DNA from: an uncultured Bacilli bacterium
Lineage (GTDB): Bacteria; Bacillota_I; Bacilli_A; RF39; UBA660
Direction: 5' to 3'
Assembly: GCA_947627925.1 (NCBI GenBank)
Contig: CANQXW010000001.1
Location: forward strand, 13,314 to 77,313
Length of the DNA: 64,000 bases
The number at the start of each line of letters is the position of its first letter. The first letter of the stretch is position 1. The translations under genes were made by a program, and so were the position numbers. Under the pieces are notes generated by a model. That model had not been told where the DNA came from and did no database searches. It saw nothing but the letters and a program-made list of their open reading frames with translations. Shown here one piece after another: positions 8,200 to 31,730 of the stretch.

Positions 8200-8389
8200 A
8201 ACTTTATTTCACTATCTTAAGTTATTACGAAAGAATTTATTATATTAATTATGTTATTTAAAATAACTTATCTAGCAGAAAGTTTAGAAATTAAATTAAA
8301 AGTAAAATTATGGAAAGAATATAAAGAAAATATTAAATTAATAATTAATATATAATTTTAAAAAAATTGATAATTAATAATACTTTGCA

Positions 8390-8416
8390 ATTGGCCAATC
8401 ACTGATTGACCAATTT
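8390..8416. repeat. palindrome P2 (AATTGGCCAATCA-C-TGATTGACCAATT)
   Basis: Same family as P1. The flanking frame reads FAIGQSLIDQFT*. Confidence 0.8.
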
Positions 8417-8558
8417 ACTTAACCTTATATTAGAGAACTTTTATAGTAAAAATTAATATTTGTAATAAAAAAATTATTTTTTTAATATGTTCGACAAAAA
8501 GTGACAAAATAAACATTTCTTGTTTGATATAATACAACCTTATTAAGGAGAAATTATT

Positions 8559-9915: not shown

Positions 9916-11232
9916 TTAACATAAAGTATTAATTAGAAATGCAGCATATAAAGGAACTGATTTAATTCTTGTTTCAGAACTATAACCAAAATCTTTTAAA
10001 CTAATTCTAATTTTATATTTAGGATGATATAAATCATCATAAACTTTTAAACTTTTAGCCTGAGTATGTTCCTCAGCCTTAACTTCAATAGGAATTATTC
10101 CATCATTCTTAGTTGAAATTAAAAAATCAACTTCAGAATCCCTTAATCCTTTCCAATATAATAAATCTAATCCATTAGCTTTCAGTTGATTAGCTACATA
10201 ATTTTCCGTAATAATGCTTTTATATATTTTCATATCATCAAGAAGAATAGTTTTAATATCATTGTTTACTAACCTATTAAAAATTCCTACATCTGAATAA
10301 TAAACTTTGAATTTTTCATTATCTACAAATCCCAATAATGGCTTTTCTGGTTTTTTAACACATTTACATAATTGAACAATATTGCTTTCAATTAACCATT
10401 CTAATGGCAATAAGTATTCTCTAGATTTAGCATCTGTTTCAATTACGGAATATTGAAACTTTTTAGAGGCATTTTGTAATTGTGATGGTAGCGAATTATA
10501 TATATTTTTTATTTTAAGGGTTTCGTATATATTTTTCACATGATTATTCATATCATTCATATAATCTTCTATTATATTATTAAGTATAGATAAATCATAA
10601 TTATAATTATCATCTTTGCAACTAACCAATGCTTTGACACTTTCTGGCATTCCTCCAGATAACATATATCTTCTATAATACTCTATCGCTTTTGTATGAG
10701 TTACTCCCATCGATTCATTATTTTTAAAACAAGATTTTATTTTATTTAATAATAGGTCTTGATCAAACGCCATTAAAAATTCTTCAAAATCCATTGGATA
10801 CATATATAGTCTAGTAACTTTTCCAACCGGAAAAGGTTTATCTAGTCTAGCAAGTTTTACTCCAAGTAAAGAACCAGCGCAAATAATTCTAACATTGCTA
10901 TGCTTCTCATTAAAAAATTTTAGCTCTGAAATCAACTCTTCGCTAACTTGTATTTCATCAATAAATAAAACACTATCTTCTTTATCAAAATCAAAATCTA
11001 ATAATATTTTTAAATCATTATACTTTTTTTCTGATGAAACATCAGAAGCATATAATTTAACAACTTCTTTATCATTTAATAAATTTATTTTTTTATAATT
11101 TTTAAATTCATTTTTACAAAATTCATCAATTATAAACGTTTTTCCACATTGTCTAACTCCCAAAACAAGTAATGGTTTAAAATCCGTTTCGTTTTTCCAA
11201 TTAATTAAATCATTATATATCTTTCTTTTCAT
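9916..11232 (-). CDS. AAA+ ATPase with DUF4143 domain (COG1373-type ATP-binding protein)
   Basis: 438 aa. The Walker A LVLGVRQCGKTF and overall architecture match the DUF4143 ATPase family. Confidence 0.8.
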   Translation of the reverse strand: MKRKIYNDLINWKNETDFKPLLVLGVRQCGKTFIIDEFCKNEFKNYKKINLLNDKEVVKLYASDVSSEKKYNDLKILLDFDFDKEDSVLFIDEIQVSEELISELKFFNEKHSNVRIICAGSLLGVKLARLDKPFPVGKVTRLYMYPMDFEEFLMAFDQDLLLNKIKSCFKNNESMGVTHTKAIEYYRRYMLSGGMPESVKALVSCKDDNYNYDLSILNNIIEDYMNDMNNHVKNIYETLKIKNIYNSLPSQLQNASKKFQYSVIETDAKSREYLLPLEWLIESNIVQLCKCVKKPEKPLLGFVDNEKFKVYYSDVGIFNRLVNNDIKTILLDDMKIYKSIITENYVANQLKANGLDLLYWKGLRDSEVDFLISTKNDGIIPIEVKAEEHTQAKSLKVYDDLYHPKYKIRISLKDFGYSSETRIKSVPLYAAFLINTLC

Positions 11233-11511: not shown

Positions 11512-12225
11512 GAGCAAAAGAAATTAGACAATCCTACTTTCCAAATTGGGCCCACACTGTGTGCCCAATTGACATATTCTCATTTTAGAGAATTATTACC
11601 CATTAAAAATGAAAATGAAAGAAATTATTATATTAACCAAGTTATTTTAAATAATTTATCAGTTAGAGAATTAATTAATGAAATTAAAAGTAATGCATTT
11701 AATAGATTATCTTATGCTGATAAAGAAAATATTAAATTAATAACTAATGAAGAAGATAAATACAATTTAACACTTTCTGATATGATTAAAGATCCCATTA
11801 TTATTAAAACGGATAAAGATATAAATAATTTAAATGAAAAGGCTATTCATAAGTTATTAATTGAAATGCTAGAGCAAAGATTTCTAGAGTTATGTTTAGG
11901 ATTTGCTCTAGTTGGTCATGAATACCCTTTAAAAATAAATAATAAAACTTATCGTACTGATTTATTATTTTTTAACTATGAAATAAATGCTTTTGTCGTT
12001 GTCGAAGTTAAAAATGAAGAATATAAACCATCACAAATTGGTCAAATAAAATTTTATATGGATTATATAAATAAGAATATTAAAAAAGAACATCATGCTA
12101 AAACAGAAGGAATATTAATAGTTAAAGAAAAAGATAAATATGTTATGAAGTATATAAATGATAAAGGAATTTATATAACATCATTTAAATTATTAAATAA
12201 TATGAAAGATAAAATTTTAAAATAA
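11512..12225 (+). pseudogene. yhcG: YhcG/DUF1016 PD-(D/E)XK nuclease gene, copy B, N-terminally truncated (no ATG; frame opens at 11512)
   Basis: LLPIKNENERNYYINQVILNNLSVRELINEIKSNAFNRLSY…LVGHEY is near-identical to copy A (~90% nt, ~95% aa over ~110 aa). The PDDEXK core that follows is only ~45% identical. The upstream N-domain is missing. Confidence 0.6.
11544..11570. repeat. palindrome P7 (AATTGGGCCCACAC-TGTGTGCCCAATT), in frame with yhcG copy B
   Basis: It encodes FQIGPTLCAQLTYSH, continuous with ORF 11569..12225. Confidence 0.8.
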
Positions 12226-13977: not shown

Positions 13978-16900
13978 TTAAGCTTTATTTATTTCCACTA
14001 AAACTTTAATACCATTAACATTAACTTCTTCTTTTTCTAAATGTTTAGAAATTATTTCTTTAGCTAATGTTTCATTTTGAATATAATCACTAAATTTGGT
14101 AATAACTTCTTTAAATTCCTCACTATCATAATAGATAATAATCCGATCACTAACATCTAAGCCTATAGTTTTGCGCATATTTTGAATTTTCGAAATGAAT
14201 TCTCTCGCATGGCCTTCTAAAATTAAGTCTTCCGTTAAGTTCGTATTTAGAATAATAAATAGATTATCCATTACTCCGACATTAAAGCCTTCTTTAGAAG
14301 CAATTTTTACTTCATACATTTCTTTCGTAATAACTGTATCATTAAATTTCATTTCTTGATGAGTTAAATCATCTAAAGTAGTATTTTGTAAAAATTCTTC
14401 ATATTCTTTAATTTTAGGTCCAAATACTTTACCTACTTCTTTATAATTAGGTTTTAGAGAAATATTCATATATTTAGAAAGTTCAGCTTCATGATTAATT
14501 TCTTTAACATTTAACTCTTCTTCAATTAAAGGAATTAAATCAGTAATCTTATTATAAACAGCACTTTCAATAATGGCTTCTTTAAGAGGTGTTCTTACTT
14601 TAATCTTGGCATCCTCTCTCACCATTCTTCCTAGAGAGATTAAATTACGAACTAAATCCATCTTTTCTTCTAAGGCCTCATCAATTAAACTTTCATCATA
14701 TTTAGGAAAGTCTTCTAAATGCACAGAATAATTGCCGGTTAAATGCGTATAGATTTCTTCACTAATATAAGGAACAACGGGAGCAATTATTTTAGATAGG
14801 CCTACTAAAACCTCATAAGTAGTTTGATAAACAGCTTTTTTAGAATTATCTAGAGTGCTACCCCAGAACCGATTCCGGCATCTTCTTATATACCAATTTG
14901 ATAAATCTTCTGATACAAAATTCGTAATAATTCTGACAACTTTATTTAAATCGTATTCTTCATAACCATTAGTTACTTCTTTTAACATACTATTATATTT
15001 AGAAAGTAACCATTTATCTATTTCTTCTCTATCCTCTACTTTAACATCACATTTATCAATATCAATATTATCCGTCGTGGCATACATACTGAAGAAATTA
15101 TAAGTATTTTTTAAAGGATTAAAGAATTTTGAATAAACTTCTTTTAACCCATCTTCATCAAATTTTAAAGGAGTCCAAACGGGAGATACATAAGGAAGAT
15201 ACCATCTTACAGTATCAGCGCCATACTTCTCCATTATCGTAAATGGTTCAATGGCATTACCTTTCGATTTATGCATCTTTTGCCCATTTTTATCAAGTAA
15301 TAATTCATTGACTAATACATTTTTATAAGGAGATACACCTTTAACAAAAGTGGAAATTACTAAAAGCGAATAAAACCAGCCTCTTGTTTGATCAATGCCT
15401 TCACAAATGAAATCAGCCGGAAATTGACTTTCAAATAATTCTTTATTTTCAAAAGGATAATGGTATTGGGCAAAAGGCATTGAGCCAGAGTCAAACCAGC
15501 AATCAATTACGTCTTTACATCTACTCATGGCTTTGCCACATTTAGGACAAGTTATATGAATATCATCGACATAAGGACGATGAAGTTCAATAGACTCATC
15601 AATATCTTCAATAGCTTTTTCCACTAGTTCACTCCTAGAACCAATCATTTCATCATGACCACATTCACACCGCCATAAAGGAAGAGGTGTTCCCCAATAA
15701 CGGGAACGCGAAATAGCCCAATCATTTAAATTCTCTAACCAATTGCCAAATCTTTTTTCGCCAACATAAGCAGGATACCAATTAACAGAATTATTATTGG
15801 CAATAATTTTGTCTTTTAATTTAGTAACCTCTAAATAAAATGATGGTTTAGAATAATAAATAAGGGGTGATTTACAACGCCAACAATGCGGATAATTATG
15901 GACCATTTTTTGCTTTTTAAATAATTTATCATTTTCTTTTAAATATTTGATAACTTCTTTATCAGCATCAAAAACAAGCATACCCTTCCACGGTCCTTCG
16001 GTATAGCAACCATCTTCACCCACCGGATTTAGATAAGGCAAATTATAATTTTTACCCACATTCGCATCATCAGCACCATAAGCGGGAGCAATATGGACAA
16101 TACCAGTTCCATCTTCCATGGTAACATAATCATCACAAGTGACAAAGAAAGCTTTCTTATTAACTTTTAATTCCGGAATTAATTGTTCATATTCGGTATA
16201 TTCTAAATCTTTACCTTTATAAGTTTCTAGTACTTCATAAGAATCGCCTAAAACTTTAGAGGCTAATTTTTCGGCAATGATAAATTTATAATCCATACTT
16301 TTAACTAAAACATAATCTTCATGAGGATTAACACAAATAGCCACATTAGCAAGAAGTGTCCATGGCGTTGTTGTCCAAACTAAGAAGTAAACATCTTCAT
16401 CCTTTTTCTTCATTGGAACAATAACAGTTTCGACTGCTACTTCTTTATAACCTTGGGCTACTTCATGAGAAGCAAGTCCTGTTCCACATCTAGGACAATA
16501 AGGAAGAATCTTACTACCTTCATAAAATAAACCTTCATCAAAAAATTTCTTTAAAATCCACCATTCGGTTTCAATATAATCATTTTTATAAGTTATATAT
16601 GGATCATTTAAATCAATAAATTGACCCATTTTATTAGTTAAATCAGCAAAAGCTTTTTCATTTTCCCAAACCGCTTTTCGACATTCTTCATTAAATTTTT
16701 CAATGCCATAGTTTTCAATATCGCCTTTAGATGAAAAACCTAAATTTTTTTCCACTTGGACTTCTACGGGAAGACCATGAGTATCCCAACCAATTTTTCT
16801 TAATACTTTATAACCTTGCATCGTTTTATATTTACAAAAAGTATCTTTTAAAAATTTGGCTAACATATGATGAAGTCCTGGCATTCCATTCGCCGTAGCG

Positions 16901-17052
16901 GGTCCATCATGAAAAACCCAATATGGACTATTATCCCGATTTTTAATACATTGATCTAAAATATCATCTTTGAGCCATTTTTCTCTAATTTTTTCTTCAA
17001 CTTTAGATACTTCGCCATTATCTAAACTTGTAAATTTCCGCATAAACAACAT
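13978..17052 (-). CDS. ileS: isoleucine--tRNA ligase
   Basis: 1024 aa with WDTHGLPVE, KMHKSKGN and a C-terminal Cys cluster. There is a non-canonical HIGH region (PGLHHM). Confidence 0.9.
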   Translation of the reverse strand: MLFMRKFTSLDNGEVSKVEEKIREKWLKDDILDQCIKNRDNSPYWVFHDGPATANGMPGLHHMLAKFLKDTFCKYKTMQGYKVLRKIGWDTHGLPVEVQVEKNLGFSSKGDIENYGIEKFNEECRKAVWENEKAFADLTNKMGQFIDLNDPYITYKNDYIETEWWILKKFFDEGLFYEGSKILPYCPRCGTGLASHEVAQGYKEVAVETVIVPMKKKDEDVYFLVWTTTPWTLLANVAICVNPHEDYVLVKSMDYKFIIAEKLASKVLGDSYEVLETYKGKDLEYTEYEQLIPELKVNKKAFFVTCDDYVTMEDGTGIVHIAPAYGADDANVGKNYNLPYLNPVGEDGCYTEGPWKGMLVFDADKEVIKYLKENDKLFKKQKMVHNYPHCWRCKSPLIYYSKPSFYLEVTKLKDKIIANNNSVNWYPAYVGEKRFGNWLENLNDWAISRSRYWGTPLPLWRCECGHDEMIGSRSELVEKAIEDIDESIELHRPYVDDIHITCPKCGKAMSRCKDVIDCWFDSGSMPFAQYHYPFENKELFESQFPADFICEGIDQTRGWFYSLLVISTFVKGVSPYKNVLVNELLLDKNGQKMHKSKGNAIEPFTIMEKYGADTVRWYLPYVSPVWTPLKFDEDGLKEVYSKFFNPLKNTYNFFSMYATTDNIDIDKCDVKVEDREEIDKWLLSKYNSMLKEVTNGYEEYDLNKVVRIITNFVSEDLSNWYIRRCRNRFWGSTLDNSKKAVYQTTYEVLVGLSKIIAPVVPYISEEIYTHLTGNYSVHLEDFPKYDESLIDEALEEKMDLVRNLISLGRMVREDAKIKVRTPLKEAIIESAVYNKITDLIPLIEEELNVKEINHEAELSKYMNISLKPNYKEVGKVFGPKIKEYEEFLQNTTLDDLTHQEMKFNDTVITKEMYEVKIASKEGFNVGVMDNLFIILNTNLTEDLILEGHAREFISKIQNMRKTIGLDVSDRIIIYYDSEEFKEVITKFSDYIQNETLAKEIISKHLEKEEVNVNGIKVLVEINKA

Positions 17053-17059
17053 CTCCTTC

Positions 17060-17330
17060 TTTAAAAAAATTCATAAACAAAAGGGCGAAAATTATTCACG
17101 GTACCACCTTTATTTATGAATTTAATTCATCTCATCATTTTAACGCATCACTGCGAAACCAAAGTACTTTTAATTCCTCGGGTTAGCTCCTAAGGGATAT
17201 AAATTAAATACTTTTATTAGTTTCCACCAACCACTAACTCTCTTTAAAAAGCTCTTTAATTTACGTGTCTTATTCATCGCCTTTAAATTTACACTTTAAA
17301 TTATATGCAAAATCTCAATGTTAGTCAACC
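17060..17330 (-). promoter_or_regulatory. T-box riboswitch leader of ileS
   Basis: The rc of 17093-17110 is AAAGGTGGTACCGTG, the T-box consensus AAnnGGGTGGnACCGCG. An AGAGAG element sits further 5'. The extent is approximate. Confidence 0.5.
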
Positions 17331-19797: not shown

Positions 19798-20562
19798 TTA
19801 TTTTATAATAGATTCTAAAGCTAAAGTAATCATTTCATTTAAACTATTTTGTCTTTCTTCCCCACTTAAAACCGTCTTACTAAATTTAGAATCAACTGCC
19901 GTTAAAATACAAGATGCTTCTCTTTGAAAATGATTAGCAATATGGAATAAAGCAAATGCTTCCATTTCTTCTCCCATAATATCTAATTCTTTAGGGATTC
20001 TATTTAATACCCGATCATAATCGATGTAAGGACCAAAAACATCCATAGTGGTTATATCGCCCACATGAAGTTTATAGTTTAATTCTTCAGCGGTTTCCAT
20101 AATCGTATTATTTAAGGTATTAGATGGATAAGTAATATGCTTATCATAATTATCAAAAGTATAAGCAAAATTACTTTCCGAATAAGCACTTTGGGCTAAA
20201 ATTAATTCAGGCACTCTAACGGTTGGTTTAACGGCTCCACAAGTCCCAATCCGAATAATTTTTTCGACATCAAAATAATGAAATAACTCCCAAGCATAAA
20301 TACCCATACTAGGCATACCCATACCTGAGGCCATAACGGTTACTCTGATTCCTTTATAAAATCCTGTATAGCCTAACATATTTCTTAAATTAGCCACATT
20401 TTTTTCTTCAATCACAAATTCATCATGAATGGCATTATCTAAAAAATGTTCCGCAATATATTTCGCTCTTAAAGGATCTCCTGGCATTAATACTAATGGC
20501 GCAATACTTCCCTTTTCGGCATTAATATGAATTGGTTCATCTCCAATAAACATTATGATCAT
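19798..20562 (-). CDS. deoD: purine nucleoside phosphorylase DeoD-type
   Basis: LVLMPGDPLRAKYIAEHFL…GFYKGIRVTVMASGMGMPS. Confidence 0.85.
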   Translation of the reverse strand: MIIMFIGDEPIHINAEKGSIAPLVLMPGDPLRAKYIAEHFLDNAIHDEFVIEEKNVANLRNMLGYTGFYKGIRVTVMASGMGMPSMGIYAWELFHYFDVEKIIRIGTCGAVKPTVRVPELILAQSAYSESNFAYTFDNYDKHITYPSNTLNNTIMETAEELNYKLHVGDITTMDVFGPYIDYDRVLNRIPKELDIMGEEMEAFALFHIANHFQREASCILTAVDSKFSKTVLSGEERQNSLNEMITLALESIIK

Positions 20563-20630: not shown

Positions 20631-21104
20631 TTACATAATAATTTGATTAGCATTTTTAAAATCCAATGATGCTACCTTAACAAAATCTTCACTGCCAATA
20701 ATAGTTACTAAATCATTTAGATACGCATTATAATTAGAAGCATAATCTAATTTTAAAGTAATATTTAGATTATAACTTTGATAAATTTTATTGGCTCTTT
20801 GGATTAAATAAGTATTAACTCCGACATTACCTTCATTAATATGGATGATAAATTCTCCTTCATAAAAAATAATATCATGAATAATCCTTAAAGTAGTTAA
20901 AACGTCACCTTCCGTTAAAATTATTTTGCCCACAATGGGACATTCTAAAATTTTATCACTACTCGAAAACTCTAAAAAATTAATGATATCGTCACTCGTG
21001 GGACTAAGTCCTAAAGAATTATCGGCATTAACTAATATATCAAAAGCCTCTTTATCATCTTTAATATAATCCAGTAATTTTCGATAAATAAAGATATTAT
21101 TCAT
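20631..21104 (-). CDS. hypothetical protein
   Basis: 157-aa ORF overlapping the upstream gene by 8 nt (operon). Confidence 0.4.
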   Translation of the reverse strand: MNNIFIYRKLLDYIKDDKEAFDILVNADNSLGLSPTSDDIINFLEFSSSDKILECPIVGKIILTEGDVLTTLRIIHDIIFYEGEFIIHINEGNVGVNTYLIQRANKIYQSYNLNITLKLDYASNYNAYLNDLVTIIGSEDFVKVASLDFKNANQIIM

Positions 21105-22611
21105 AACTTAAATTCTCACTTTCTAAATTATTCATAAAATCGACCACCGTATTAATTTTTTCTTGCATGCTCTCATTATTAATCGCCTCATATAAAGCCG
21201 TTTGCCAACTTAGAAAAGAAGTATGATATATTCTTTTACTATTCGGAATCGTTTTAATATAACTAATTAGATCCGCTTTAGGCATTTTACTCATTTCTAA
21301 AAAATTATCAATATTCATGACATAAGTTGCGGCATATTTAACAGGCGTTTGAGCTTCTTCATTTTCCCAAAATTTTTCTAAAACAACGACGCCATTAGCA
21401 TAAAAGAAAGCATAATAACCCCCAAAGGTTTGACTTAAGCCTTTAAAAGGGCGCCCAATAAAATTTGAATTTTCTAAAGTGACAATTCTTTCATTGACTT
21501 CTCTTACTAATGTATCATTATCTTTTATTTTACGAGGTTTAGATTTTATTTTTACCCTACCTTGAGGTATACTTTTTCCTTCCGGAAGTAGTTCCCAATT
21601 TAACGTAATTTCTTGATCATATAAGTGATTAAATTTAGCCATAAAATTAATATCCCGATAAGTATTTACTTCTCCTTCTTTAAGCGTAGGTATATTAAAT
21701 TCTTTAATCTCGGGATGCATTATTCTTAAGGCCTGATATTCTTCTTGAAAATTCCATCGTGAATATCTTCTCAATTTCGCCATGCTTGGTAAAATATAAG
21801 TAATTCTGGGGTCATACCTTTTATTAGTTTTAATCATTTCTTCAATGGCTTTTTTATAAAACATTAAATATTGATAACAATTAGGTAAAGGGCCCTCTTT
21901 TTTATTTAAACAATATTCATAAATTATTTTAGCAAACATTAAAGAGAATGTATCATCATCAAAAGAGGATGCTAATTCATAAAAATCAATGGAATGGTCA
22001 AAAAAATCACCAAGGCGAGGTAAGCCATTAATTAAATCTTCTAATAATTGATAACTCTCTTCCACATATTCTCTAAATTCTTTATCTTTTCCATATACTT
22101 CATAATCTTCTCTTGCTACTTCAAAATATTCCGAATTTATCTCTTTATCTATAACATCTTTTAATTTTAAGGCTTTAGCTTTAAAAGCCTCTACTAAAGC
22201 TAAATTGATTGCTTCTCTACCTTTAGAATATTCTTCAATTAAACCATTAATAAAATTTCTTTGTTCTTCTTTCGTTTTCCCATAACGATCTAAATGATGG
22301 TTAACCATTTCCACTAAAGAAGTATAAAAATGGTGTTCTGAATATTTTAAAGTTCTCCCTATTTTATTAGGATTAGGTAAGGATACCATAAAAGCTAAAT
22401 TTTTTAAAATAGTAGGATTATGAAAAATAGCTAGCATAGGTTCTTGATAAGTTTTACGATAAAATTGAGCAAATTTATTTTGGCCATTTTCTTTTAGGGA
22501 ATTTTCCAAAAGATTATCAAGGGAAAAAGTCCAATACCCATCATAAGAAGGAATTGGATTAAACACTGCTTCAACATAATCCATTTGTTTAAAGCATTCC
22601 GCTATGGCCAT
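21097..22611 (-). CDS. hypothetical protein
   Basis: 504-aa ORF. No family recognised. Confidence 0.4.
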   Translation of the reverse strand: MAIAECFKQMDYVEAVFNPIPSYDGYWTFSLDNLLENSLKENGQNKFAQFYRKTYQEPMLAIFHNPTILKNLAFMVSLPNPNKIGRTLKYSEHHFYTSLVEMVNHHLDRYGKTKEEQRNFINGLIEEYSKGREAINLALVEAFKAKALKLKDVIDKEINSEYFEVAREDYEVYGKDKEFREYVEESYQLLEDLINGLPRLGDFFDHSIDFYELASSFDDDTFSLMFAKIIYEYCLNKKEGPLPNCYQYLMFYKKAIEEMIKTNKRYDPRITYILPSMAKLRRYSRWNFQEEYQALRIMHPEIKEFNIPTLKEGEVNTYRDINFMAKFNHLYDQEITLNWELLPEGKSIPQGRVKIKSKPRKIKDNDTLVREVNERIVTLENSNFIGRPFKGLSQTFGGYYAFFYANGVVVLEKFWENEEAQTPVKYAATYVMNIDNFLEMSKMPKADLISYIKTIPNSKRIYHTSFLSWQTALYEAINNESMQEKINTVVDFMNNLESENLSYE

Positions 22612-22689
22612 GTAATCACTTTCTATCCTAAACTTATTATAGCATTATTTTAATTTTTATAAAACAATTAGAATTGGACTTTACATATG

Positions 22690-22713
22690 TTTAAGAACAC
22701 AAAAAACTTTCAA
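22690..22713. repeat. direct repeat DR-L (TTAAGAACACAAAAAACTTTCAAC), a displaced copy of the rlmD 3' end
   Basis: It matches 24337-24359 at 21/24. The minus frame reads …VTLKVFCVLKHM*, compared with the rlmD end …HVESFCVLKMRYK*. Confidence 0.7.
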
Positions 22714-22755
22714 CGTAACTAGTACGTACAGTAGAAATATATCAAATATTACTTT

Positions 22756-23607
22756 TTATATAGTAACCTTTTCTTCGCTTAAATTATTGGTTATGTATTC
22801 TAACGAATCTAATAAACTTTCAAAAGATATATTACTAGAATATGGAGCAGTAATTTGATAACTTTTCCATAATTTTTTAAGCTGTTCACTTGATTTCATA
22901 TTATTTAGTTGCTCTTTAACATTTTCTATATTTAATTCAGTTTTTTTATATCTGAAAGTATTTTTTATTGCTAAAACAAGATTTTTAAAATTTATTTTTT
23001 CTTTATTATCATTTATCAAAACATAAATATCATAAAAATCTTTCATTCTAGTATTATATATATCTCTTTCTATAATAGTTTGATATTTTTCAGCAATAAA
23101 AGTTTCCAATGTATAAGCAAAAATTGGTATTTTCTTATCTTCAAAATGGGAATTATACATATAGAGAATTTCTCTTGGAGTTATTCTATCCCCTGTTGTA
23201 AGTTCTATAGCAAGATAAACTTTTAAATTATCCATTGTTGCTAAAATGTTTATCTTAAATCCACCATACTCATTGTCTTCCCTTATATCTTTAATATTTT
23301 CAATTTTAAATTTTATGCCATCATCAACTTTTGTATTTAATATTTCTGTTATTATTTCTATTACATTATCTTTATTAAGTGGCAAACTCTTTAATGTTGC
23401 GTCCATATCCTTTGTTGTTCTTTCATCATCACCGATAATAGAAGAAAGTAATAATCCGCCTTTTAAAATAATATTATGTTTATATTTGCTTTTTGAAAGT
23501 CTTTCTAAAATATGTTCAAAAAAATACATTTGATATAATTGGGCTGATACATTACTATTTCCTTTTGCCTTCTTTGAAATAATACTTTTTAATTTGTCTT
23601 TATCCAC
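22756..23607 (-). CDS. abiEii: nucleotidyltransferase toxin AbiEii/AbiGii family (DUF1814)
   Basis: 283 aa with the KGG motif (NIILKGGLLL), DxD (TTKDMDATL) and typical length. It overlaps the AbiEi stop by 1 nt. Confidence 0.8.
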   Translation of the reverse strand: MDKDKLKSIISKKAKGNSNVSAQLYQMYFFEHILERLSKSKYKHNIILKGGLLLSSIIGDDERTTKDMDATLKSLPLNKDNVIEIITEILNTKVDDGIKFKIENIKDIREDNEYGGFKINILATMDNLKVYLAIELTTGDRITPREILYMYNSHFEDKKIPIFAYTLETFIAEKYQTIIERDIYNTRMKDFYDIYVLINDNKEKINFKNLVLAIKNTFRYKKTELNIENVKEQLNNMKSSEQLKKLWKSYQITAPYSSNISFESLLDSLEYITNNLSEEKVTI

Positions 23608-24236
23608 TATAACAATACCTCCATATATTCACTTACTTTCTTTTCAATTTTCATAATTTTGGCATACTTGGTAAGTTTGCTTAAATTTTTATTTTTACTT
23701 CTAGCGTACTCTTTTAGGGCTTTCGAAAATATTTCACCATCAATTTTATTTCTATTTTTAATAATATCACAAATTGTTCTCTCAATATCATATACTTTAA
23801 TTTTCATACCAAAAGGAGATGTCATTTCTATTGCACCTAAATCTAAAATATTTCTATTTACAAAGCTAATAATTACATTTTTATCTTTTTGTAAAACTCC
23901 ACTATAATCATTAGGCAAAGTGATATTGTATAAAAGAGGTGTACGATCTGATAAATTATGTAAGTATAAAGCAGTAGCCAATGAAAATCTTACATTTTTA
24001 CTTTTAGAGGCTATTTTATAATATTCATCTTCTATATAATTAGGAAGTCCATAATAGCCTTTTGAAATTCTTATTAATGTTCCTTTCTTTACCATGTTTG
24101 TCAAAAATTTTTTATCAATGCCATTATTTACAACTTCTTTGGTTGTAATACAACCATTATTTTTTTCAACAATTTTTAAAATTTTATCATAATTCATAAT
24201 TTTACACCGTTCTCTTTCTAACTGAAATTCTATCAT
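23607..24236 (-). CDS. abiEi: AbiEi antitoxin-like transcriptional regulator (type IV TA / abortive infection); true start probably ATG at 24197
   Basis: N-terminal winged-helix …ILKIVEKNNGCITTKEVVNNGIDKKFLTNMVKKGTLIRISKGYYGL. Confidence 0.75.
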   Translation of the reverse strand: MIEFQLERERCKIMNYDKILKIVEKNNGCITTKEVVNNGIDKKFLTNMVKKGTLIRISKGYYGLPNYIEDEYYKIASKSKNVRFSLATALYLHNLSDRTPLLYNITLPNDYSGVLQKDKNVIISFVNRNILDLGAIEMTSPFGMKIKVYDIERTICDIIKNRNKIDGEIFSKALKEYARSKNKNLSKLTKYAKIMKIEKKVSEYMEVLL

Positions 24237-24319
24237 TTATCAGTTCAAAAGTGAATAGTTTTTTAAAAATTTTTTATTTTTTTATTCTTTTTAATACGAC
24301 TTAATAGTTGATTTTCGCT

Positions 24320-25522
24320 TTATTTATATCGCATTTTTAGAACACAAAAACTTTCCACATGTTCCGTATTAGGAAACATATCTAAAAGAATAAACTCTTT
24401 AATCTCATATTCATCTAACAATAAATTTAAATCTCTTCCTAAAGTATGAGGATTACAAGAAACATAAATAATCTTTTTAATTTTCTCTTCCTTAATTTGA
24501 TTAATTATTTCTTCTTTAACTCCACTTCTTGGGGGATCTAAAATTATTGTATCAAAATAGGAAGTAATTTTTTCTTTAACTTTACTGGTATCCGATGCAA
24601 TAAATTCTAAATTATCGCGTTTATTAATTACTTTATTTAAATTAGCATCTTTAACCGCATTAGCTACAATTTCTACGCCTAAAGTTTTTTGAACATTTTT
24701 ATTTGTGGCTATACTAAGAGTTCCTACTCCCGAATAAAAGTCTAAAACCTCTTTACTATCTTTTGTATAATCATTAATGAGATTAAATAACTCAGAACAA
24801 ATATAAGGATTTACTTGAAAGAAAGAATCATAACTAATTTTAAATAAATAATCATTTATTTGATCCATTAAATAGTTTTCTCCATAAAGAGAGTTCCCAT
24901 TATGAATAATTCCCACAAGAGGATAATTATGAATTAACCATTCTGTATTTTCTAACGCACCTTCACTTTCACATATTAATAAAATTTCTCCTTTATAATT
25001 AGTCCTGATAGTCACTGTACCATTTTTGATATTTAATTTATTTAAATCTTTTAATAAATTATTAATTGGTTCACTTGCTAAATAACAATAAGCAATTTTT
25101 AAAGGAGAATGGGTTTCTGGTTCATAAAAACAAATTTCATTATTAATAATTTTAACAGTTAATTTATTACGATAATGATATTGCTCTTGACTTTTAATAA
25201 TGTTCTTTACCTCATAAGAAATTTTATTTTTTCTTAAAATAGCATTTACTTTATCCAACTTATAAGATAAGGCTTCACTTAAAGATATGTGCATTAAATC
25301 ACAACCACCACATTTGGCGAAATAAGGACAAATAGGTTTGATTCTTTTTTTAGAAGGCGTAATAATTTCAGTTATTTTGCCTTCATAATAATTCTTCTTT
25401 TCTTTAGTTATTTCTACTTCTACAATATCACCCGGAACAGTTTTAGGCACAAAAATAATTTTATTATTTAAATAACCTATCCCTCTTCCTAAATTGTCCA
25501 TTTTTATAATTTCTACATTCAT
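24320..25522 (-). CDS. rlmD: 23S rRNA (uracil-5-)-methyltransferase RlmD/RumA family (TRAM + SAM MTase, Fe-S Cys cluster)
   Basis: VEIIKMDNLGRGIGY…IIFVPKTVPGDIVEV (TRAM), CPYFAKCGGCDLMH, SAM-binding DFYSGVGTLS. The ORF-track start at 25591 is a TTG extension. ATG at 25522 is preferred. Confidence 0.8.
   Translation of the reverse strand: MNVEIIKMDNLGRGIGYLNNKIIFVPKTVPGDIVEVEITKEKKNYYEGKITEIITPSKKRIKPICPYFAKCGGCDLMHISLSEALSYKLDKVNAILRKNKISYEVKNIIKSQEQYHYRNKLTVKIINNEICFYEPETHSPLKIAYCYLASEPINNLLKDLNKLNIKNGTVTIRTNYKGEILLICESEGALENTEWLIHNYPLVGIIHNGNSLYGENYLMDQINDYLFKISYDSFFQVNPYICSELFNLINDYTKDSKEVLDFYSGVGTLSIATNKNVQKTLGVEIVANAVKDANLNKVINKRDNLEFIASDTSKVKEKITSYFDTIILDPPRSGVKEEIINQIKEEKIKKIIYVSCNPHTLGRDLNLLLDEYEIKEFILLDMFPNTEHVESFCVLKMRYK
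24337..24359. repeat. direct repeat DR-R (TTTAGAACACAAAAACTTTCCAC) inside the rlmD 3' end
   Basis: Pairs with DR-L. The two delimit a ~1.63-kb AbiE insertion. Confidence 0.7.
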
Positions 25523-28238: not shown

Positions 28239-29648
28239 ATGAATAAAATTGTGGAAAGAGTTAAAAATGAATTTACTAACACTCCTGATTTAAAAATAAA
28301 AGAAGTAAAAATTAATCCTTTTAAATCTGTATATGTTATTTTTATTGAAACTGTCTGTTCTTCTGATAAAGTAAATGATTATATCTTAAAAAATCTAACT
28401 TTAAAAAAAGATGTTGATATTGAAAGTTCTATTCCTGGACCAAATACGGTTCCTTTAGATAATTATGATCAAATTGAATTTTATTTAACTAATGGCTTTG
28501 CCATAGTTATTTATAATAAAGATATTATTGCCATTGAAGTAAGGGGCGATTTAAATCGGAGCATTACTCAATCTTTAAGAGAGCCTTCCTTACTAGGGCC
28601 AGAAGATTCTTTTAATGAAAATTACCAAACTAATATGGGACTTATTAAAAGAAGAATTAAAAGTCATACTTTAAAAACTGAAGAAATAGTAATGGGAAGA
28701 ATTACTAAAACCACTATTAGCATTAATTATATTGATACTATTGCTGATGAAAAAAATGTGCAAATTATTAAAGAAAAACTCCAAAGGATTGATGTGGATG
28801 GTGTTATTGATCAAGGAACAATCATTAACTATTTAGAAAGTGAAAATAAAACTGTTTTTCCCACGATTAAAAGAACCGAAAGACCGGATTTAGCTGTAAC
28901 CTCTCTTTTAGAAGGGAAAATTGTTATCATGATGGATACCTCTCCTTTTGCCATTATCTTACCTACTTTTTTAATTGATTTTATTAATCCGGTTAATGAT
29001 AATTATGTTAAAAGTATTAATGTGGGTTTTATTAAATTATTACGTTTTTTCTCTTTTATCATGTCGATGGTTACCCCAGGAGTTTATATTGCCATTATTA
29101 ATTATAATCAAGAAACTATTCCTTCAAGTTTGCTTATTAATTTTAGTACCCAAAGATCGGGTGTTCCCTTTCCCAGCATTGTGGAACTCATCATGCTTTT
29201 ATTTATTTGTGATGTGTTAAGAGAAAGTGACTTACGATTCCCTTCTAATTTTGGTTCCGCCATTTCTATTTTAGGAGCCTTAATCATTGGTGATGCGGCG
29301 GTTAATGCGGGGTTAGTTTCACCTATTGCTATCATTATTGCTTCTTTTACCTTTATCACTAGTTTAATTTTTACGGAGTTAGAAATTAATAACGCTTTAA
29401 GATATTACCGTTACTTATTTTTATTCTTCGCCGCCTTCTTTGGTTTATATGGTATCTTCCTTTGCGCTATTCTTCTTTTAATAAATTTAATTTCTTTAAA
29501 ATCTTTAAATGCGCCTTTCTTTGCTCCCATTGCTCCTTTTAATAAAGAATATTTCTTTAAAAGTGTTCTTAAAAGAAAAGATATTAAAAATACCAAACGG
29601 AGTAAATTAATTACTAATAAGAATTTAACGAGAGGAAAATTTTCATGA
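28239..29648 (+). CDS. gerAA: spore germination protein, GerA (A-subunit) family
   Basis: 469 aa with a GerA-family N-domain and a C-terminal 4-5 TM region. Operon with the C and B subunits. Confidence 0.85.
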   Translation: MNKIVERVKNEFTNTPDLKIKEVKINPFKSVYVIFIETVCSSDKVNDYILKNLTLKKDVDIESSIPGPNTVPLDNYDQIEFYLTNGFAIVIYNKDIIAIEVRGDLNRSITQSLREPSLLGPEDSFNENYQTNMGLIKRRIKSHTLKTEEIVMGRITKTTISINYIDTIADEKNVQIIKEKLQRIDVDGVIDQGTIINYLESENKTVFPTIKRTERPDLAVTSLLEGKIVIMMDTSPFAIILPTFLIDFINPVNDNYVKSINVGFIKLLRFFSFIMSMVTPGVYIAIINYNQETIPSSLLINFSTQRSGVPFPSIVELIMLLFICDVLRESDLRFPSNFGSAISILGALIIGDAAVNAGLVSPIAIIIASFTFITSLIFTELEINNALRYYRYLFLFFAAFFGLYGIFLCAILLLINLISLKSLNAPFFAPIAPFNKEYFFKSVLKRKDIKNTKRSKLITNKNLTRGKFS

Positions 29649-30724
29649 AAAAAATATTAATATTAATTCTATGTTCTCTATTTCTCGGAGGCTGTTATGA
29701 TAATATTGAGCTTAATAATTTAGCAATTGTAAGTGGCATTGGTATTGACTATGAAGATGATAACTTTATTCTAACTTATGAAGTTTTAAACGATACTAAA
29801 ACCGACGAAAATACGGCGATGCTCAGTTATACCGAAGAAGGAAAAGGCAAATCGATTGTCGAAGCTTTTACCAACACCAATTATAAAATTGGCAAGAAAC
29901 CTTATTTTGCTCATTTACGAGTTGTCTTATTAAGTGAAACAATAATTAAAGATCACTTAGATGAAATAAGTGACTACTTAATAAGAGACACCGATATTCG
30001 CGATGAGTTTATTAGTGTAGTTGTGAAAGATACCACCCCTAAAGAAGTACTTACCCATAATAGTAAAAATATTCCCGTAGTTAGTGATCTGATTATTAAT
30101 CTTTTAGATAATGAAAAATATAATAATAATCTTTCTGTTACCGATACTTTTCAACAAGTTTTAGCTAAATTTATTAGTCATAACCAAGATGCTGTTTTAA
30201 GCTCTCTTACCATAAACGAAAATGATGAGATAACTTTAAGCAATTTTTATCTGTTTAAAGGCTACTATTACCAAGATACTTTAACCGAAGAAGAATCTAG
30301 TTTTTATAATTTACTTACCAAAGATGTTTTTGGTTTAAAAGTAGAAAATAAATATGAAAAAGGTAATGTTGTTATTAATATAAGTCACTCTAAACCCGAA
30401 ATAGAGGTAACAAGTGATAAAATAAAAATAAATTTAAAATTAGATGGAAAAATCTTAGATAATAATGCCGATTTTGATTTAAAAAGTGAAAAGTCTTATC
30501 AAGAATTAAATAAAGATTTCTCTTTAATTATTAAAGATAAAGTTACTAGCTTTATTCAAAAATTACAAGCCAACAAATCCGATATTTTAGGCCTTCAAGA
30601 GATATACTTTAAAAAGTGGCGAAAAGAAAATCATAATCTATGGGAAACTGCAAACATTGAAGTTAAGATTGATTTAAAAATTAATACTAAAGGTTTTATA
30701 TTTGAGGTGGAAAATGAAAAATAA
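29645..30724 (+). CDS. gerAC: germinant receptor C-subunit lipoprotein (Ger(x)C family)
   Basis: The lipobox is LFLGGC. LAIVSGIGIDYED is typical of GerxC. Confidence 0.8.
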   Translation: MKKILILILCSLFLGGCYDNIELNNLAIVSGIGIDYEDDNFILTYEVLNDTKTDENTAMLSYTEEGKGKSIVEAFTNTNYKIGKKPYFAHLRVVLLSETIIKDHLDEISDYLIRDTDIRDEFISVVVKDTTPKEVLTHNSKNIPVVSDLIINLLDNEKYNNNLSVTDTFQQVLAKFISHNQDAVLSSLTINENDEITLSNFYLFKGYYYQDTLTEEESSFYNLLTKDVFGLKVENKYEKGNVVINISHSKPEIEVTSDKIKINLKLDGKILDNNADFDLKSEKSYQELNKDFSLIIKDKVTSFIQKLQANKSDILGLQEIYFKKWRKENHNLWETANIEVKIDLKINTKGFIFEVENEK

Positions 30725-31730
30725 ATTAACTTATTTTATTTCTAGTTCATCAATGTTTGGTATTGGCTTCTTTCTCCTTTTTAAAAATGCCGGCAAGGAT
30801 GCTTGGATTTCTCTTCTTTTAGGTACTCTTCTAGGAATTATGATTATGTATCTTTATAGTAAAATTAAAAAATATTTAAAAGATAATAATTTAAAAGAAA
30901 CTTTAAAAAATACTTTTATGGGAAAAGTTTATTTAGGAATATTTTTAATTTTTTATCTTTATTTAATAACCATTATTTTAATTTTACTACCAATGTTTGT
31001 TAATTCTTTCTACCTTTTATATACTCCTAAAATTATTGTCATTATTCCCTTCTTACTTTTAGCCGTTTATATAACTTATAAAGAAAAAAGAGTTTTAGAA
31101 ACTCTTAGCAATTTTCTTTTTACTATAAGTATTGCTGTCATAATTATTTATATAATTGCTCTTTTTAAATATATCGATTTTAATAATTTAAAACCTGTCT
31201 TTTCCGAAAGCACTTGGGGAATTATGAAAGCATCTTTAATCTATGCCTCTATTACAACTATTCCTAATATTATAACTATTAATTTTAATAATAATGATTT
31301 TAAATATGAACTTAAAGTATATTTAATTTCTAGTTTCATGCTCCTTCTAATTTTACTTTCAACCATTGTTTGTTTAGGAGAACCTTTAATTAAAATTTAT
31401 AGTTTCCCTGAATATGCTGTTTTAAAACAAATTAAAATATTAGATTTTATTGAAAATATTGAAAATTTATCGACCTTTATTTGGTACTTTGATATGTTTA
31501 TAACTCTTTCAGTTCTTACTACTAATGTTAAAGAAATACTTCCTAAAAAAAGAAATTTTATTTATTACCTACTCGCCATTTTTCTCACCATTATTTTAAG
31601 TATTTTTATCATTGGTAGTAACTACCGCTATATAATAACTGTTTTTTATACTTATCCTTTTATCTTATTTGGCTTTCTAGTTCTATTTATATTACTCTTA
31701 TTTATCCTAAAAAAAAGAAGAAAAGATTAA
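30702..31730 (+). CDS. gerAB: germinant receptor B-subunit (spore germination permease, APC superfamily)
   Basis: 342 aa, ~10 TM, with an N-terminal …GKDAWISLLLG motif. Confidence 0.8.
   Translation: MRWKMKNKLTYFISSSSMFGIGFFLLFKNAGKDAWISLLLGTLLGIMIMYLYSKIKKYLKDNNLKETLKNTFMGKVYLGIFLIFYLYLITIILILLPMFVNSFYLLYTPKIIVIIPFLLLAVYITYKEKRVLETLSNFLFTISIAVIIIYIIALFKYIDFNNLKPVFSESTWGIMKASLIYASITTIPNIITINFNNNDFKYELKVYLISSFMLLLILLSTIVCLGEPLIKIYSFPEYAVLKQIKILDFIENIENLSTFIWYFDMFITLSVLTTNVKEILPKKRNFIYYLLAIFLTIILSIFIIGSNYRYIITVFYTYPFILFGFLVLFILLLFILKKRRKD

What the first reader, a model, noticed from the sequence alone, without database searches (positions are those of the whole stretch)
22690..24359. AbiEi/AbiEii abortive-infection (type IV TA) cassette inserted into the 3' end of rlmD, with 24-bp direct repeats and a displaced original gene end
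The 24-mer TTTAGAACACAAAAACTTTCCAC (24337-24359) forms the last codons of rlmD (…HVESFCVLKMRYK*). A 21/24 match, TTAAGAACACAAAAAACTTTCAAC, lies at 22690-22713, 1.63 kb away. In the same minus frame this second copy encodes …VTLKVFCVLKHM*, an alternative rlmD C-terminus followed by a stop. Exactly the AbiEi-AbiEii pair (overlapping by 1 nt) lies between them. This is the signature of a small integrative element that targets a gene 3' end and supplies a replacement end. I see no integrase inside, so it may be a decayed or trans-mobilised cassette.
Basis: seen in the sequence. Interest (0 to 1): 0.6.

Follow-up and report, generated by a model that had tools for sequence, protein, structure and literature searches.

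The report
Integrase-less AbiE defence cassette in rlmD
A 1.6-kb mobile cassette that carries only an AbiE phage-defence/toxin-antitoxin gene pair has slipped into the very end of an rRNA-methyltransferase gene, bringing its own replacement gene end. It belongs to a family of tiny cassettes without a recombinase that build defence-gene arrays at this same spot in uncultured gut bacteria.

Summary
Window 22716-24359 (1,644 bp) is an insertion at the H-V-E codons near the 3' end of rlmD. It carries abiEi-abiEii plus a replacement rlmD end (…SFCVLKMRYK*). The native end (…SFCVLKHM*, now with a +1 T frameshift) is displaced to 22681-22715.

Conspecific contigs with 99% identical flanks show a clean empty site, whose rlmD ends in KHM or KHL. 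The cassette is 96% identical between two lineages whose flanks are only 86-88% identical. AbiE pairs 74-92% identical sit directly after rlmD-family genes that are only 35-60% identical in at least 9 other gut Bacilli MAGs.

The cassette ends are shared with other small cassettes that also lack a recombinase. Their cargo includes GmrSD, RhuM, ORF6N, a methyltransferase and a nuclease, and one is a roughly 240-bp cargo-less version. Some are stacked in tandem arrays.

No recombinase was found nearby. The site is the known rumA hotspot of ICEs and prophages that use serine recombinases.

Best reading: a CIME-like, trans-mobilised (or recently immobilised) mini-element that AbiE helps to stabilise. 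This is a new variant of a known kind and is moderately interesting.

The parts
22716..24359 (-). The whole inserted cassette (1,644 bp): supplied rlmD end, left end, PabiE, abiEi, abiEii and a truncated right end
   Evidence: It is absent from the empty sites L005 and L006 and present in L001-L004 and L027. The junctions were placed using SNP logic. It is 96.3% identical to the L001 cassette, against 85.6% and 88.5% for the flanks. GC is 23.2% against 27.4% for the window.
24360..25522 (-). Host-encoded part of rlmD (RumA-family 23S rRNA m5U methyltransferase), from ATG 25522 to the His codon
   Evidence: Pfam TRAM + tRNA_U5-meth_tr. The 400-aa homologues begin M(E/K)VEIIK.
24320..24359 (-). 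Replacement rlmD 3' end supplied by the element (…(H)VESFCVLKMRYK*)
   Evidence: Translation. The KMRYK/KMQYK tail occurs only in occupied loci. The same tail plus left end is found in L007 behind an rlmD only 35% identical.
24256..24319 (-). Conserved non-coding 'left end' of the cassette family
   Evidence: The nhmmer profile of left ends hits window 24346-24266 (E = 3e-14). It also hits L001-4, L007, L024 (three times), L043-45, L048 and L050 (three times).
24210..24255 (-). abiE promoter and operator: -35 TTCACT / -10 TAGAAT with a TG motif, overlapped by a 16-nt inverted repeat
   Evidence: AbiEi-binding inverted repeats in PabiE are described in PMC3985639.
23607..24197 (-). abiEi (antitoxin and autorepressor, 196 aa; the real start is the internal ATG)
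   Evidence: Pfam AbiEi_4; PADLOC AbiEi 1.3e-67. Homologues start MNYDKILK.
22756..23607 (-). abiEii (DUF1814 nucleotidyltransferase toxin, 283 aa); GG(50-51)-x15-DMD(67-69) is intact
   Evidence: Pfam AbiEii 1.4e-37; PADLOC 1.4e-88. The motif was read from the translation and compared with motifs I/II in PMC3985639.
22716..22755 (-). Truncated 'right end' of the cassette (…GATATATTTCTACTGTACGTACTAGTTA)
   Evidence: It aligns with the first and last parts of the ~105-nt right end of L007, L008, L009, L024, L048 and L050.
22681..22715 (-). Displaced native rlmD 3' end (CGTTGAAAGTTTTT[+T]GTGTTCTTAAACATATGTAA), now a frameshifted pseudo-end
   Evidence: Identical, apart from the extra T, to attB of the empty site L005.
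22636..22663 (-). Promoter-like site of the downstream 505-aa gene, unchanged by the insertion
   Evidence: The same intergenic sequence is present in the empty sites.

Best explanation
Window 22716-24359 is a miniature integrative cassette with no recombinase gene. [quoted passage not shown]

**How it got there.** It entered rlmD by site-specific recombination at the conserved …H-V-E… codons, 9-11 codons from the stop. Its left end carries an imitation of the rlmD 3' end, so RlmD stays full length; only the last residues change, from KHM to KMRYK. The native end is pushed 1.6 kb downstream and is decaying.

**What moves it.** The cassette encodes no recombinase. It keeps short left and right ends that it shares with many sister cassettes. 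I infer that a recombinase supplied in trans cuts and joins it, most probably by a larger rlmD/rumA-targeting element. By precedent this would be an ICE or prophage with a large serine recombinase.

**What it does.** Its only cargo is a self-regulated abiEi-abiEii operon. AbiEii is a nucleotidyltransferase toxin and AbiEi is its antitoxin and repressor. From what is known of the family, this pair would give abortive-infection phage defence and would also penalise loss of the cassette.

**The wider pattern.** Repeated integration of such cassettes at the same site builds small defence-gene arrays downstream of rlmD.

**Shown:** the insertion, the clean empty site, the precise boundaries, the supplied gene end, cross-host spread, the shared ends, the arrays and the absence of a recombinase.

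**Inferred:** trans-mobilisation, the type of recombinase and AbiE activity.
For: 1. **Empty versus occupied sites.** L005 and L006 have rlmD (398 aa, KHM/KHL) followed directly by the 505-aa gene. L001-4, L027 and the window have rlmD (400 aa, KMRYK/KMQYK) + AbiEi + AbiEii + the same gene.
2. **Polymorphism within a species.** L001 and L006 flanks are 99.2% and 98.6% identical. The boundaries are sharp: 4 SNPs lie within the last 10 nt on the left, and SNP density is ordinary elsewhere.
3. **The cassette is younger than the host divergence.** It is 96.3% identical between the window and L001, against 85.6% for rlmD and 88.5% for the right flank.
4. **Spread across hosts.** AbiEi is 80-92% and AbiEii 74-91% identical, directly 3' of rlmD-family genes that are only 35-60% identical, in L007, L010, L011, L013, L014, L017, L018, L024 and L029. 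Displaced rlmD pseudo-ends lie downstream in L007, L008, L011 and L024.
5. **Shared ends, variable cargo, no recombinase.** Left- and right-end profiles hit cassettes carrying GmrSD, ORF6N, RhuM + methyltransferase and an EEP nuclease. L009 has AbiLi/AbiLii directly upstream of its AbiE pair, but no left end was detected there. There is also a ~240-bp cargo-less version (L043). Tandem arrays have right end-core-left end junctions (L024, L050).
6. **No recombinase.** None was found in the insert, in the window, or among the neighbours of about 14 rlmD-linked loci.
7. **Precedent for the site.** The same rumA codons are a cross-species hotspot for elements with serine recombinases, which exchange 3' ends and insert in tandem (PMC4120198, PMC4701971, PMC12785378). 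CIMEs and accretion are described in PMC5704250.
8. **The AbiE operon looks intact.** It has a promoter with an inverted repeat and the NTase motifs.
Against: No helper recombinase or full-length parent element was found, so trans-mobilisation remains an inference.

The window's right end is cut down to about 40 nt, against about 105 nt elsewhere. The cassette may therefore no longer be a substrate for recombination.

ParA fragments of different lengths lie between the left end and abiE in L007, L018 and L024. They show that the lineage descends from something larger and has decayed independently several times.

Neither attB nor the attP-like junctions show significant dyad symmetry. The conserved palindrome in the right end shows no covariation.

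The exchange point I map (the His codon) lies 4-6 nt 5' of the GA dinucleotide reported for streptococcal elements. The enzyme may therefore differ.

All the evidence comes from MAGs and metagenome contigs.
Confidence: 0.58

Rival explanations
1. The cassette is a dead relic. A large rlmD-targeting ICE or prophage integrated once, using its own recombinase, and later lost everything by deletion except its two ends and the addictive AbiE module. The cassette is now immobile. Presence or absence in a population reflects ancestral polymorphism or allele exchange by homologous recombination.
For: - ParA gene fragments lie between the left end and abiE in L007, L018 and L024.
- Related AbiE pairs (78% identical) sit inside a T4SS/vanG-type conjugative element that has a serine recombinase.
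- The window's right end is truncated.
- No helper was found.
- L046 shows scars of the ends and of the AbiEi operator without the genes.
- Decay of ICEs to CIMEs is documented (PMC5704250).
Against: - The same abiEii/right-end joint is shared by cassettes in hosts whose rlmD genes are only 35-60% identical. Any recombinase lying between abiEii and the right end, where rumA-type serine integrase genes lie, was therefore already gone before the cassette spread. One located between the left end and abiE is not excluded.
- The identical truncated version is 96% identical in two lineages whose flanks are 86-88% identical.
- At least 6 different small cassettes without a recombinase share the same ends, and one has no cargo at all.
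- The junctions are sharp, with no imported flanking tract.
Confidence: 0.3
2. No site-specific recombinase is involved. The cassette was imported from a relative by homologous recombination, or by homology-facilitated illegitimate recombination anchored in rlmD. The repeat is simply the donor's rlmD end lying next to the recipient's.
For: - Identity between the window and L001 stays somewhat raised (91-92%) for about 450 nt on the right flank.
- Four SNPs cluster in the last 10 nt of rlmD in L001 relative to L006.
Against: - The cassette sits at the same codons in rlmD genes only 35-44% identical, where homologous recombination is not possible.
- Conserved non-coding ends and repeated right end-core-left end junctions occur in arrays.
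- L001 and L006 flanks show no donor tract beyond 10 nt.
Confidence: 0.07
3. The repeat is a chance match or a common motif in AT-rich DNA. abiE is ancestral at this position, and the 'empty' relatives are deletions.
For: Repeats of similar length and identity occur by chance in the same 3 kb. The shuffle test of the 17-mer is not significant.
Against: - The second copy encodes exactly the C-terminus of the empty-site RlmD proteins.
- The L006 attB cannot be produced by recombination within the 12-nt identity shared by L001 attL and attR. It carries the host-type CGTT and A alleles that are found in attR.
- The motif occurs nowhere else in the window.
Confidence: 0.03

Closest known systems
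rumA/rlmD-targeting ICEs and prophages with a large serine recombinase (vanG elements, ICE-r, ICE_…_rumA of streptococci, CTn5 of C. difficile, phiEr670 of Erysipelothrix)
   Same: - The same target: the conserved H-V-E-coding stretch about 10 codons from the 3' end of a RumA-family gene, across hosts whose rumA genes are only about 36-74% identical.
- The element supplies a new in-frame gene end, and the native end is displaced.
- Tandem insertions occur (PMC4120198, PMC4701971, PMC12785378).
- A 78% identical AbiE pair is carried by a vanG-type T4SS element.
   Different: - The window element is 1.6 kb with no recombinase, no conjugation genes and no phage genes.
- In those ICEs the recombinase gene spans attR. 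Here only 40 nt separate the abiEii stop from the junction.
- The supplied tail is 12-13 codons, not about 100-115.
- The exchange point maps to the His codon rather than to the Glu GA.
- Homology of the ends to any serine-recombinase element has not been shown.
CIMEs (cis-mobilizable elements) and site-specific accretion (ICESt1/ICESt3-related islands of Streptococcus thermophilus; Pavlovic 2004 and Bellanger 2011, as reviewed in PMC5704250)
   Same: - The element is flanked by attL and attR and lacks integration and transfer genes.
- Related elements stack in tandem at the 3' end of one gene.
- Mobility depends on a helper's recombinase.
   Different: - These cassettes are much smaller (0.24-3 kb).
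- They form a recurrent modular family of conserved ends plus one small defence operon, spread over many host genera.
- The helper has not been identified, and mobilisation has not been tested.
Integron gene cassettes
   Same: Small units of one or two genes without a recombinase, each bounded by a conserved recombination end, stacked head to tail in arrays next to a fixed site, and moved by a recombinase encoded elsewhere.
   Different: - No integrase, attI or Pc platform lies next to the array.
- The cassettes carry their own promoters.
- The attachment site is inside a housekeeping gene whose end each cassette imitates.
- Folding of the right end like an attC site is not supported by covariation.
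AbiE (AbiEi/AbiEii) type IV toxin-antitoxin / abortive-infection systems (Dy et al. 2014, PMC3985639)
   Same: - A bicistronic, overlapping abiEi-abiEii operon.
- A winged-HTH AbiEi and a DUF1814 NTase with GG-x15-DxD.
- Inverted repeats over the promoter.
- The family is known to sit on ICEs and to stabilise plasmids.
   Different: Here the operon is the sole cargo of a minimal integrative cassette. Its activity has not been tested.

Membership tests
AbiE type IV TA / Abi system | AbiEi antitoxin with an N-terminal winged-HTH (COG5340 / AbiEi_4) | tested here: met
   Pfam PF13338 2.2e-09. PADLOC AbiEi 1.3e-67 over residues 1-195.
AbiE type IV TA / Abi system | AbiEii DUF1814 nucleotidyltransferase with motifs I/II (G[G/S]-x15-DhD) | tested here: met
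   Pfam PF08843 1.4e-37. PADLOC 1.4e-88. G50 G51 …x15… D67 M68 D69 was read from the translation and compared with the motif definition in PMC3985639. Motifs III and IV were not checked.
AbiE type IV TA / Abi system | Bicistronic operon, antitoxin first, with a promoter overlapped by inverted repeats (the AbiEi operator) | tested here: met
   The genes share nucleotide 23607. The 16-nt inverted repeat at 24210-24225 / 24240-24255 overlaps the -35/-10 site at 24255..24227.
AbiE type IV TA / Abi system | Toxicity neutralised by AbiEi; phage resistance | not testable with these tools
   Needs expression and phage assays.
Site-specific integrative element at the rumA/rlmD 3' end | Insertion at the conserved H-V-E codons, with an empty site in relatives | tested here: met
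   The junctions are at 24360|24359 and 22716|22715.
Site-specific integrative element at the rumA/rlmD 3' end | The element restores an in-frame gene end | tested here: met
   RlmD is 400 aa in occupied loci and 398 aa in empty ones.
rumA-type ICE / prophage (vanG, ICE-r and similar) | A large serine recombinase gene spanning the right end (attR lies inside the integrase gene) | tested here: not met
   No recombinase ORF is present. Only 40 nt separate the abiEii stop from the junction. The right end carries a conserved in-frame stop. The cassette is therefore not filed as an ICE.
rumA-type ICE / prophage (vanG, ICE-r and similar) | A conjugation (T4SS) or virion module | tested here: not met
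   The only ORFs are abiEi and abiEii.
CIME (cis-mobilizable element) | Retains attL and attR but lacks integration and transfer genes | tested here: met
   Both junctions are defined, and the conserved left and right ends are shared with sister cassettes. There is no recombinase.
CIME (cis-mobilizable element) | att sites are those of a related autonomous element that can excise or mobilise it | tested here: inconclusive
   No autonomous relative was found in two viral-contig scans, one metagenome scan, plasmid and phage BLAST, or the ParA-fragment search.
Integron cassette | An adjacent intI/attI/Pc platform | tested here: not met
   No integrase lies next to rlmD in any locus.
Integron cassette | An attC-like imperfect palindrome at the cassette end that folds as a hairpin | tested here: inconclusive
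   The palindrome TCATAAT…ATTATGA is conserved, but there is no covariation.

The most novel reading that the evidence does not exclude
The rlmD 3' end of these uncultured gut Bacilli hosts an integron-like system without a resident integrase. It would consist of a pool of 0.24-3 kb cassettes, each made of a ~90-nt left end that imitates the rlmD tail, a promoter with one small defence operon, and a ~105-nt right end. A recombinase encoded elsewhere (a helper ICE, prophage or chromosomal gene) would excise, exchange and stack these cassettes. Defence repertoires would then be shuffled one cassette at a time across genera.
Probability: 0.25. Interest if true: 0.75.

Novelty: new variant of a known kind. 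Interest (0 to 1): 0.5.

Why it matters
It shows how a phage-defence operon can travel as an almost bare gene pair. Short recombination ends and a built-in copy of the target gene's last codons appear to be enough to place it in a housekeeping gene across distantly related hosts without damaging that gene.

If the cassettes are indeed moved in trans, the rlmD/rumA hotspot is more than a landing pad for big resistance-carrying ICEs such as the vanG elements. It would also be a cassette-exchange site that assembles defence islands in gut Firmicutes.

The conserved ends give a simple sequence handle for finding more such cassettes and the recombinase that serves them.

Tried and rejected
- **Searches for a parent or helper element.** Two viral-contig scans with left-end patterns found nothing. 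BLAST of a right end-core-left end junction against plasmids and phages found nothing. The single metagenome scan found more arrays (L048, L050) but no recombinase.
- **ParA-fragment search.** It returned only short ParA fragments. The two contexts I looked at (L059 after rpsI; L060 with ICE-like ParA-ParB-sortase-SNF2) are not at rlmD.
- **Is the right end a decayed 3' end of a serine recombinase ORF?** In the H-V-E frame all copies share a conserved stop (…IL*HSQL…), so this is not supported in that frame. The question remains open.
- **Dyad symmetry of attB and attP.** The best centre of attB falls at GTT|GAA, but the score is no better than shuffled sequence. I dropped this as evidence.
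- **RNA or attC-like structure in the right end.** There is no Rfam match, no consensus structure and no covariation for the conserved palindrome.
- **Direct 'arm-type' repeats in the right end.** My first impression was wrong. The repeat finder shows that these motifs form an inverted repeat, not direct repeats.
- **Inverted terminal repeats between the left and right ends.** Nothing convincing was found.
- **Looking for an integrase among the window ORFs.** None was seen by eye. Most of these ORFs were not run against Pfam.
- **Ends of the phage record phi-SgaBSJ31_rum.** It carries a 40% identical AbiEii. Its ends were inspected but were uninformative.
- **Source contig of the window.** Look-up of P0121 failed because it is not on record.
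Full report
**1. The observation**

- On the minus strand an rlmD/RumA-family gene (TRAM + tRNA_U5-meth_tr) runs from ATG 25522 to a stop at 24320. It ends …HVESFCVLKMRYK*.
- Downstream lie abiEi (23607-24197; the ORF finder's start at 24236 is probably too early) and abiEii (22756-23607), which share one nucleotide.
- Both proteins match AbiE models strongly: Pfam 2.2e-09 and 1.4e-37, PADLOC 1.3e-67 and 1.4e-88.
- A second copy of the last rlmD codons lies at 22690-22712. It matches the first 19/23 without gaps and 21/24 with one indel. It reads …VTLKVFCVLKHM*.
- Removing one T from its T-run gives VESFCVLKHM*.

Statistically the repeat alone is unremarkable in 27% GC DNA, although its 12-mer core occurs only at these two places in the window. 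The case rests on comparison with related loci.

**2. Empty and occupied sites**

The closest RlmD proteins fall into two classes.
- The 400-aa proteins end in KMRYK or KMQYK (P0001-3).
- The 398-aa proteins end in KHM or KHL (P0004-7), which is exactly the end encoded by the displaced copy.

Their contigs match this split.
- P0003 loci (L001-L004, L027) have rlmD-abiEi-abiEii followed by a 505-aa gene.
- P0004 and P0006 loci (L005, L006) have rlmD followed directly by that same gene.

Alignments of both junctions show the insert replaced by a single uninterrupted rlmD end. L001 (occupied) and L006 (empty) are 99.2% and 98.6% identical in their flanks, so the site is polymorphic within one species.

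**3. Boundaries**

Both empty sites, and attR of both occupied lineages, carry …CA(C/T) GTT GAA AGT TTT TGT (G/A)TT CTT AAA CAT…. The two attL copies instead carry CAT (G/A)T(G/A) GAA AGT TTT TGT GTT CTA AAA ATG….

In L001 compared with L006, four SNPs fall within the 10 nt upstream of GAAAG in attL, whereas attR keeps the host alleles CGTT and A. The simplest reading is an exchange at the His codon.

This places the host|element junction at 24360|24359 and the element|host junction at 22716|22715. The insert is 1,644 bp.

The '24-bp direct repeat' is therefore an element-borne imitation of the rlmD tail plus the native tail. It is not a target-site duplication.

**4. Mobility**

Between the window and L001 the cassette is 96.3% identical, against 85.6% for rlmD and 88.5% for the right flank.

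A genome-collection scan with AbiEii returned 26 loci, mostly rabbit, mouse and other gut MAGs labelled uncultured Bacilli or Tenericutes. In L007, L010, L011, L013, L014, L017, L018, L024 and L029 an AbiE pair (AbiEi 80-92%, AbiEii 74-91% identical) sits immediately 3' of an rlmD-family gene that is only 35-60% identical to the window's.

Displaced rlmD pseudo-ends lie downstream of the cassette in several of these loci:
- L007: SHVECIVFL*
- L008: YAERVCILN*
- L011: SHMESFCVLEKK…
- L024: SHVECVSLL…

The cassette is thus far better conserved than the gene it sits in, and it is always found at the same codons.

**5. A family of cassettes**

The non-coding sequence after the supplied tail is the 'left end': …ATAAATAAAG(C/G)GAAAATCAACTATT.AGTCGT.TTAAAAAGAA.AAAAAAATA. 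It is shared by the window, L001, L007, L018, L024 and L043.

A 'right end' of about 105 nt has the core TGTATATTATGACATAGTCAGTTATAA and the terminus CATAATGT.C.AA.TAGT(C/T)A(T/C). It follows abiEii in L007, L008, L009 and L024, and is partly retained in L011, L018 and L029. The window and L001 keep only its first and last parts.

The same ends bound other cargo.
- **L024** is a tandem array downstream of rlmD:
  - first cassette: left end, ParA fragment, AbiE, right end;
  - then a core and a partial left end, ORF6N, an 88-aa ORF and a short right end;
  - then a core and a left end, followed by a GmrSD-type enzyme.
- **L050** has rlmD followed by at least three cassettes. Their cargo is a methyltransferase plus RhuM, and an EEP nuclease plus a RhuM fragment.
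- **L043-45** hold a ~240-bp version consisting of a left end and a right-end terminus with no gene.
- **L046** keeps only scars.
- **L051-58** have the supplied NRR tail, a partial left end and ORF6N.
- **L009** has AbiLi/AbiLii just upstream of its AbiE.

Most of the identified cargo matches known or candidate defence families.

**6. No recombinase**

No recombinase is encoded in the insert. None was seen among the window's ORFs by eye. None was found among the neighbours of the rlmD-linked loci examined.

ParA fragments of different lengths between the left end and abiE in L007, L018 and L024 show descent from something larger. A 78% identical AbiE pair is very widespread inside a T4SS/vanG-type conjugative element that has a serine recombinase.

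**7. What is known**

- Srinivasan et al. 2014 (PMC4120198) showed that vanG elements and 'ICE-r' insert in the Glu codon, 11 codons from the end of rumA, in streptococci, E. faecalis and Roseburia. These insertions restore in-frame fusions, occur in tandem, and have a large serine recombinase gene spanning the right end.
- Ambroset et al. 2016 (PMC4701971) describe a clade of single serine integrases that target rumA, with 2-21-bp direct repeats and a reciprocal exchange of 3' ends.
- An Erysipelothrix prophage with a serine recombinase also lies next to rlmD (PMC12785378).
- Elements that have lost their integration genes but keep attL and attR are called CIMEs. Their stacking with incoming elements is called accretion (PMC5704250).
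- AbiE is a type IV TA/Abi system. It comprises a GTP-binding NTase toxin and an autorepressing antitoxin that binds promoter inverted repeats. It is found on ICEs and is able to stabilise plasmids (PMC3985639).

The window's operon has the expected promoter with an inverted repeat and an intact GG-x15-DMD motif.

**8. Mechanism proposed**

*Shown:*
- a precise insertion at the H-V-E codons of rlmD, with a supplied gene end;
- a clean empty allele in conspecifics;
- spread of the same small unit across divergent hosts;
- ends shared with sister cassettes and arrays;
- no recombinase on board.

*Inferred:*
- The ends are the half-sites of an attP. A recombinase supplied in trans by a larger rlmD-targeting element recombines this attP with the rlmD site.
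- A large serine recombinase is the best guess by precedent, and such enzymes need only short sites. This would explain why the 40-nt right end still travelled between two lineages.
- AbiE gives abortive-infection defence and penalises loss of the cassette, which would explain why it is the part that survives.

My confidence is about 0.85 that this is a site-specific insertion and about 0.55 that it is, or very recently was, mobilised in trans. It is about 0.4 that the enzyme is a serine recombinase.

**9. Rivals**

- A dead relic of a decayed ICE is the main alternative (0.3).
- Import purely by homologous recombination (0.07) fails for hosts whose rlmD is only 35-44% identical.
- A chance repeat with abiE ancestral at this position (0.03) is contradicted by the empty-site sequences.

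**10. Verdict**

The finding is real and correctly interpreted. In kind it is known: the rumA/rlmD hotspot, CIME-like derivatives and AbiE on mobile elements have all been described.

What is new is the recurrent, modular family of very small cassettes without a recombinase. They have conserved ends, mostly defence-related cargo and tandem arrays, and they occur in uncultured gut Bacilli.

I rate it a new variant of a known kind, with interest 0.5. All the evidence is from MAGs and metagenome contigs. The occupied architecture recurs in the window and in L001-L004 (L027 is a second retrieval of the same contig as L001), which argues against assembly artefacts.

Noticed in passing
window 8229-9494 and 11539-12225, flanking 9916-11232: Several fragments of a gene that looks DUF1016/YhcG-like by eye (…VVGQLTWSH…) are repeated. 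They include a 300-nt direct repeat (8826-9125 / 11539-11838, 88% identical) on either side of a 438-aa ATPase-like ORF on the opposite strand. A 47-nt motif around CAATTGG…CCAATT recurs five times. Similar fragments (…DEIVS.LVRQL…) lie next to the rlmD cassettes in L010, L011, L013, L018, L029 and L046.
   Followed up: partly
window 22701-22706 (the A-run on the + strand): The displaced native rlmD end carries one extra base in its homopolymer run compared with L001 attR and with the empty sites. It is therefore already a frameshifted pseudo-end.
   Followed up: yes
L037-L042 (loci of AbiEii homologue P0159, 78% identical): A very widespread AbiE pair (indexed in 175 blocks of the collection) sits between T4SS genes (PrgI, VirB4-like, sortase, CHAP) and a vanG-type operon (VanW, D-Ala-D-Ala ligase family, VanY, acyltransferase, alanine racemase). 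PemK and a serine recombinase lie about 10 kb further on. This is a vanG-like conjugative element.
   Followed up: partly
L048:1-510: The rlmD reading frame breaks at about residue 375 and runs straight into a cassette right end. This looks like a deletion between rlmD and a downstream cassette that left only the last H-V-E… codons.
   Followed up: partly
One search hit list; L059:10001-10429; L060:2602-3428: The top 120 relatives of the ParA fragment are all short (65-139 aa), and some sit on long contigs. Split or truncated parA genes therefore seem common in these bacteria. One lies after rpsI next to an Abi_2 gene, at another classic integration site.
   Followed up: partly
window 21097-22611, 20631-21104 and 19798-20562: A 505-aa and a 157-aa protein with no Pfam match, followed by a purine nucleoside phosphorylase-family gene, are conserved directly downstream of rlmD. 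They occur in relatives whose RlmD is only about 58-60% identical (L010, L014, L018, L046, L051). The function of this syntenic pair is unknown.
   Followed up: no
window 17078-17286 and 13978-17052: A T-box leader (Rfam 121.9 bits) lies upstream of a 1,024-aa ORF that looks like ileS. The homologous gene in L001 carries tRNA-synt_1, Anticodon_1 and DUF5915 domains.
   Followed up: no
window 28239-31730: Three ORFs syntenic with the GerA, GerAC and spore-permease genes annotated in L001 suggest that the host forms spores. The window reads with the standard bacterial code (long ORFs under table 11) at 27% GC.
   Followed up: no
phage records MN270259.1 and MN270258.1: Two roughly 106-110-kb Streptococcus gallolyticus 'phage' records whose names end in _rum carry a 40% identical AbiEii homologue. 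This is a possible further link between rumA-integrated elements and AbiE. The record ends I inspected were uninformative.
   Followed up: partly
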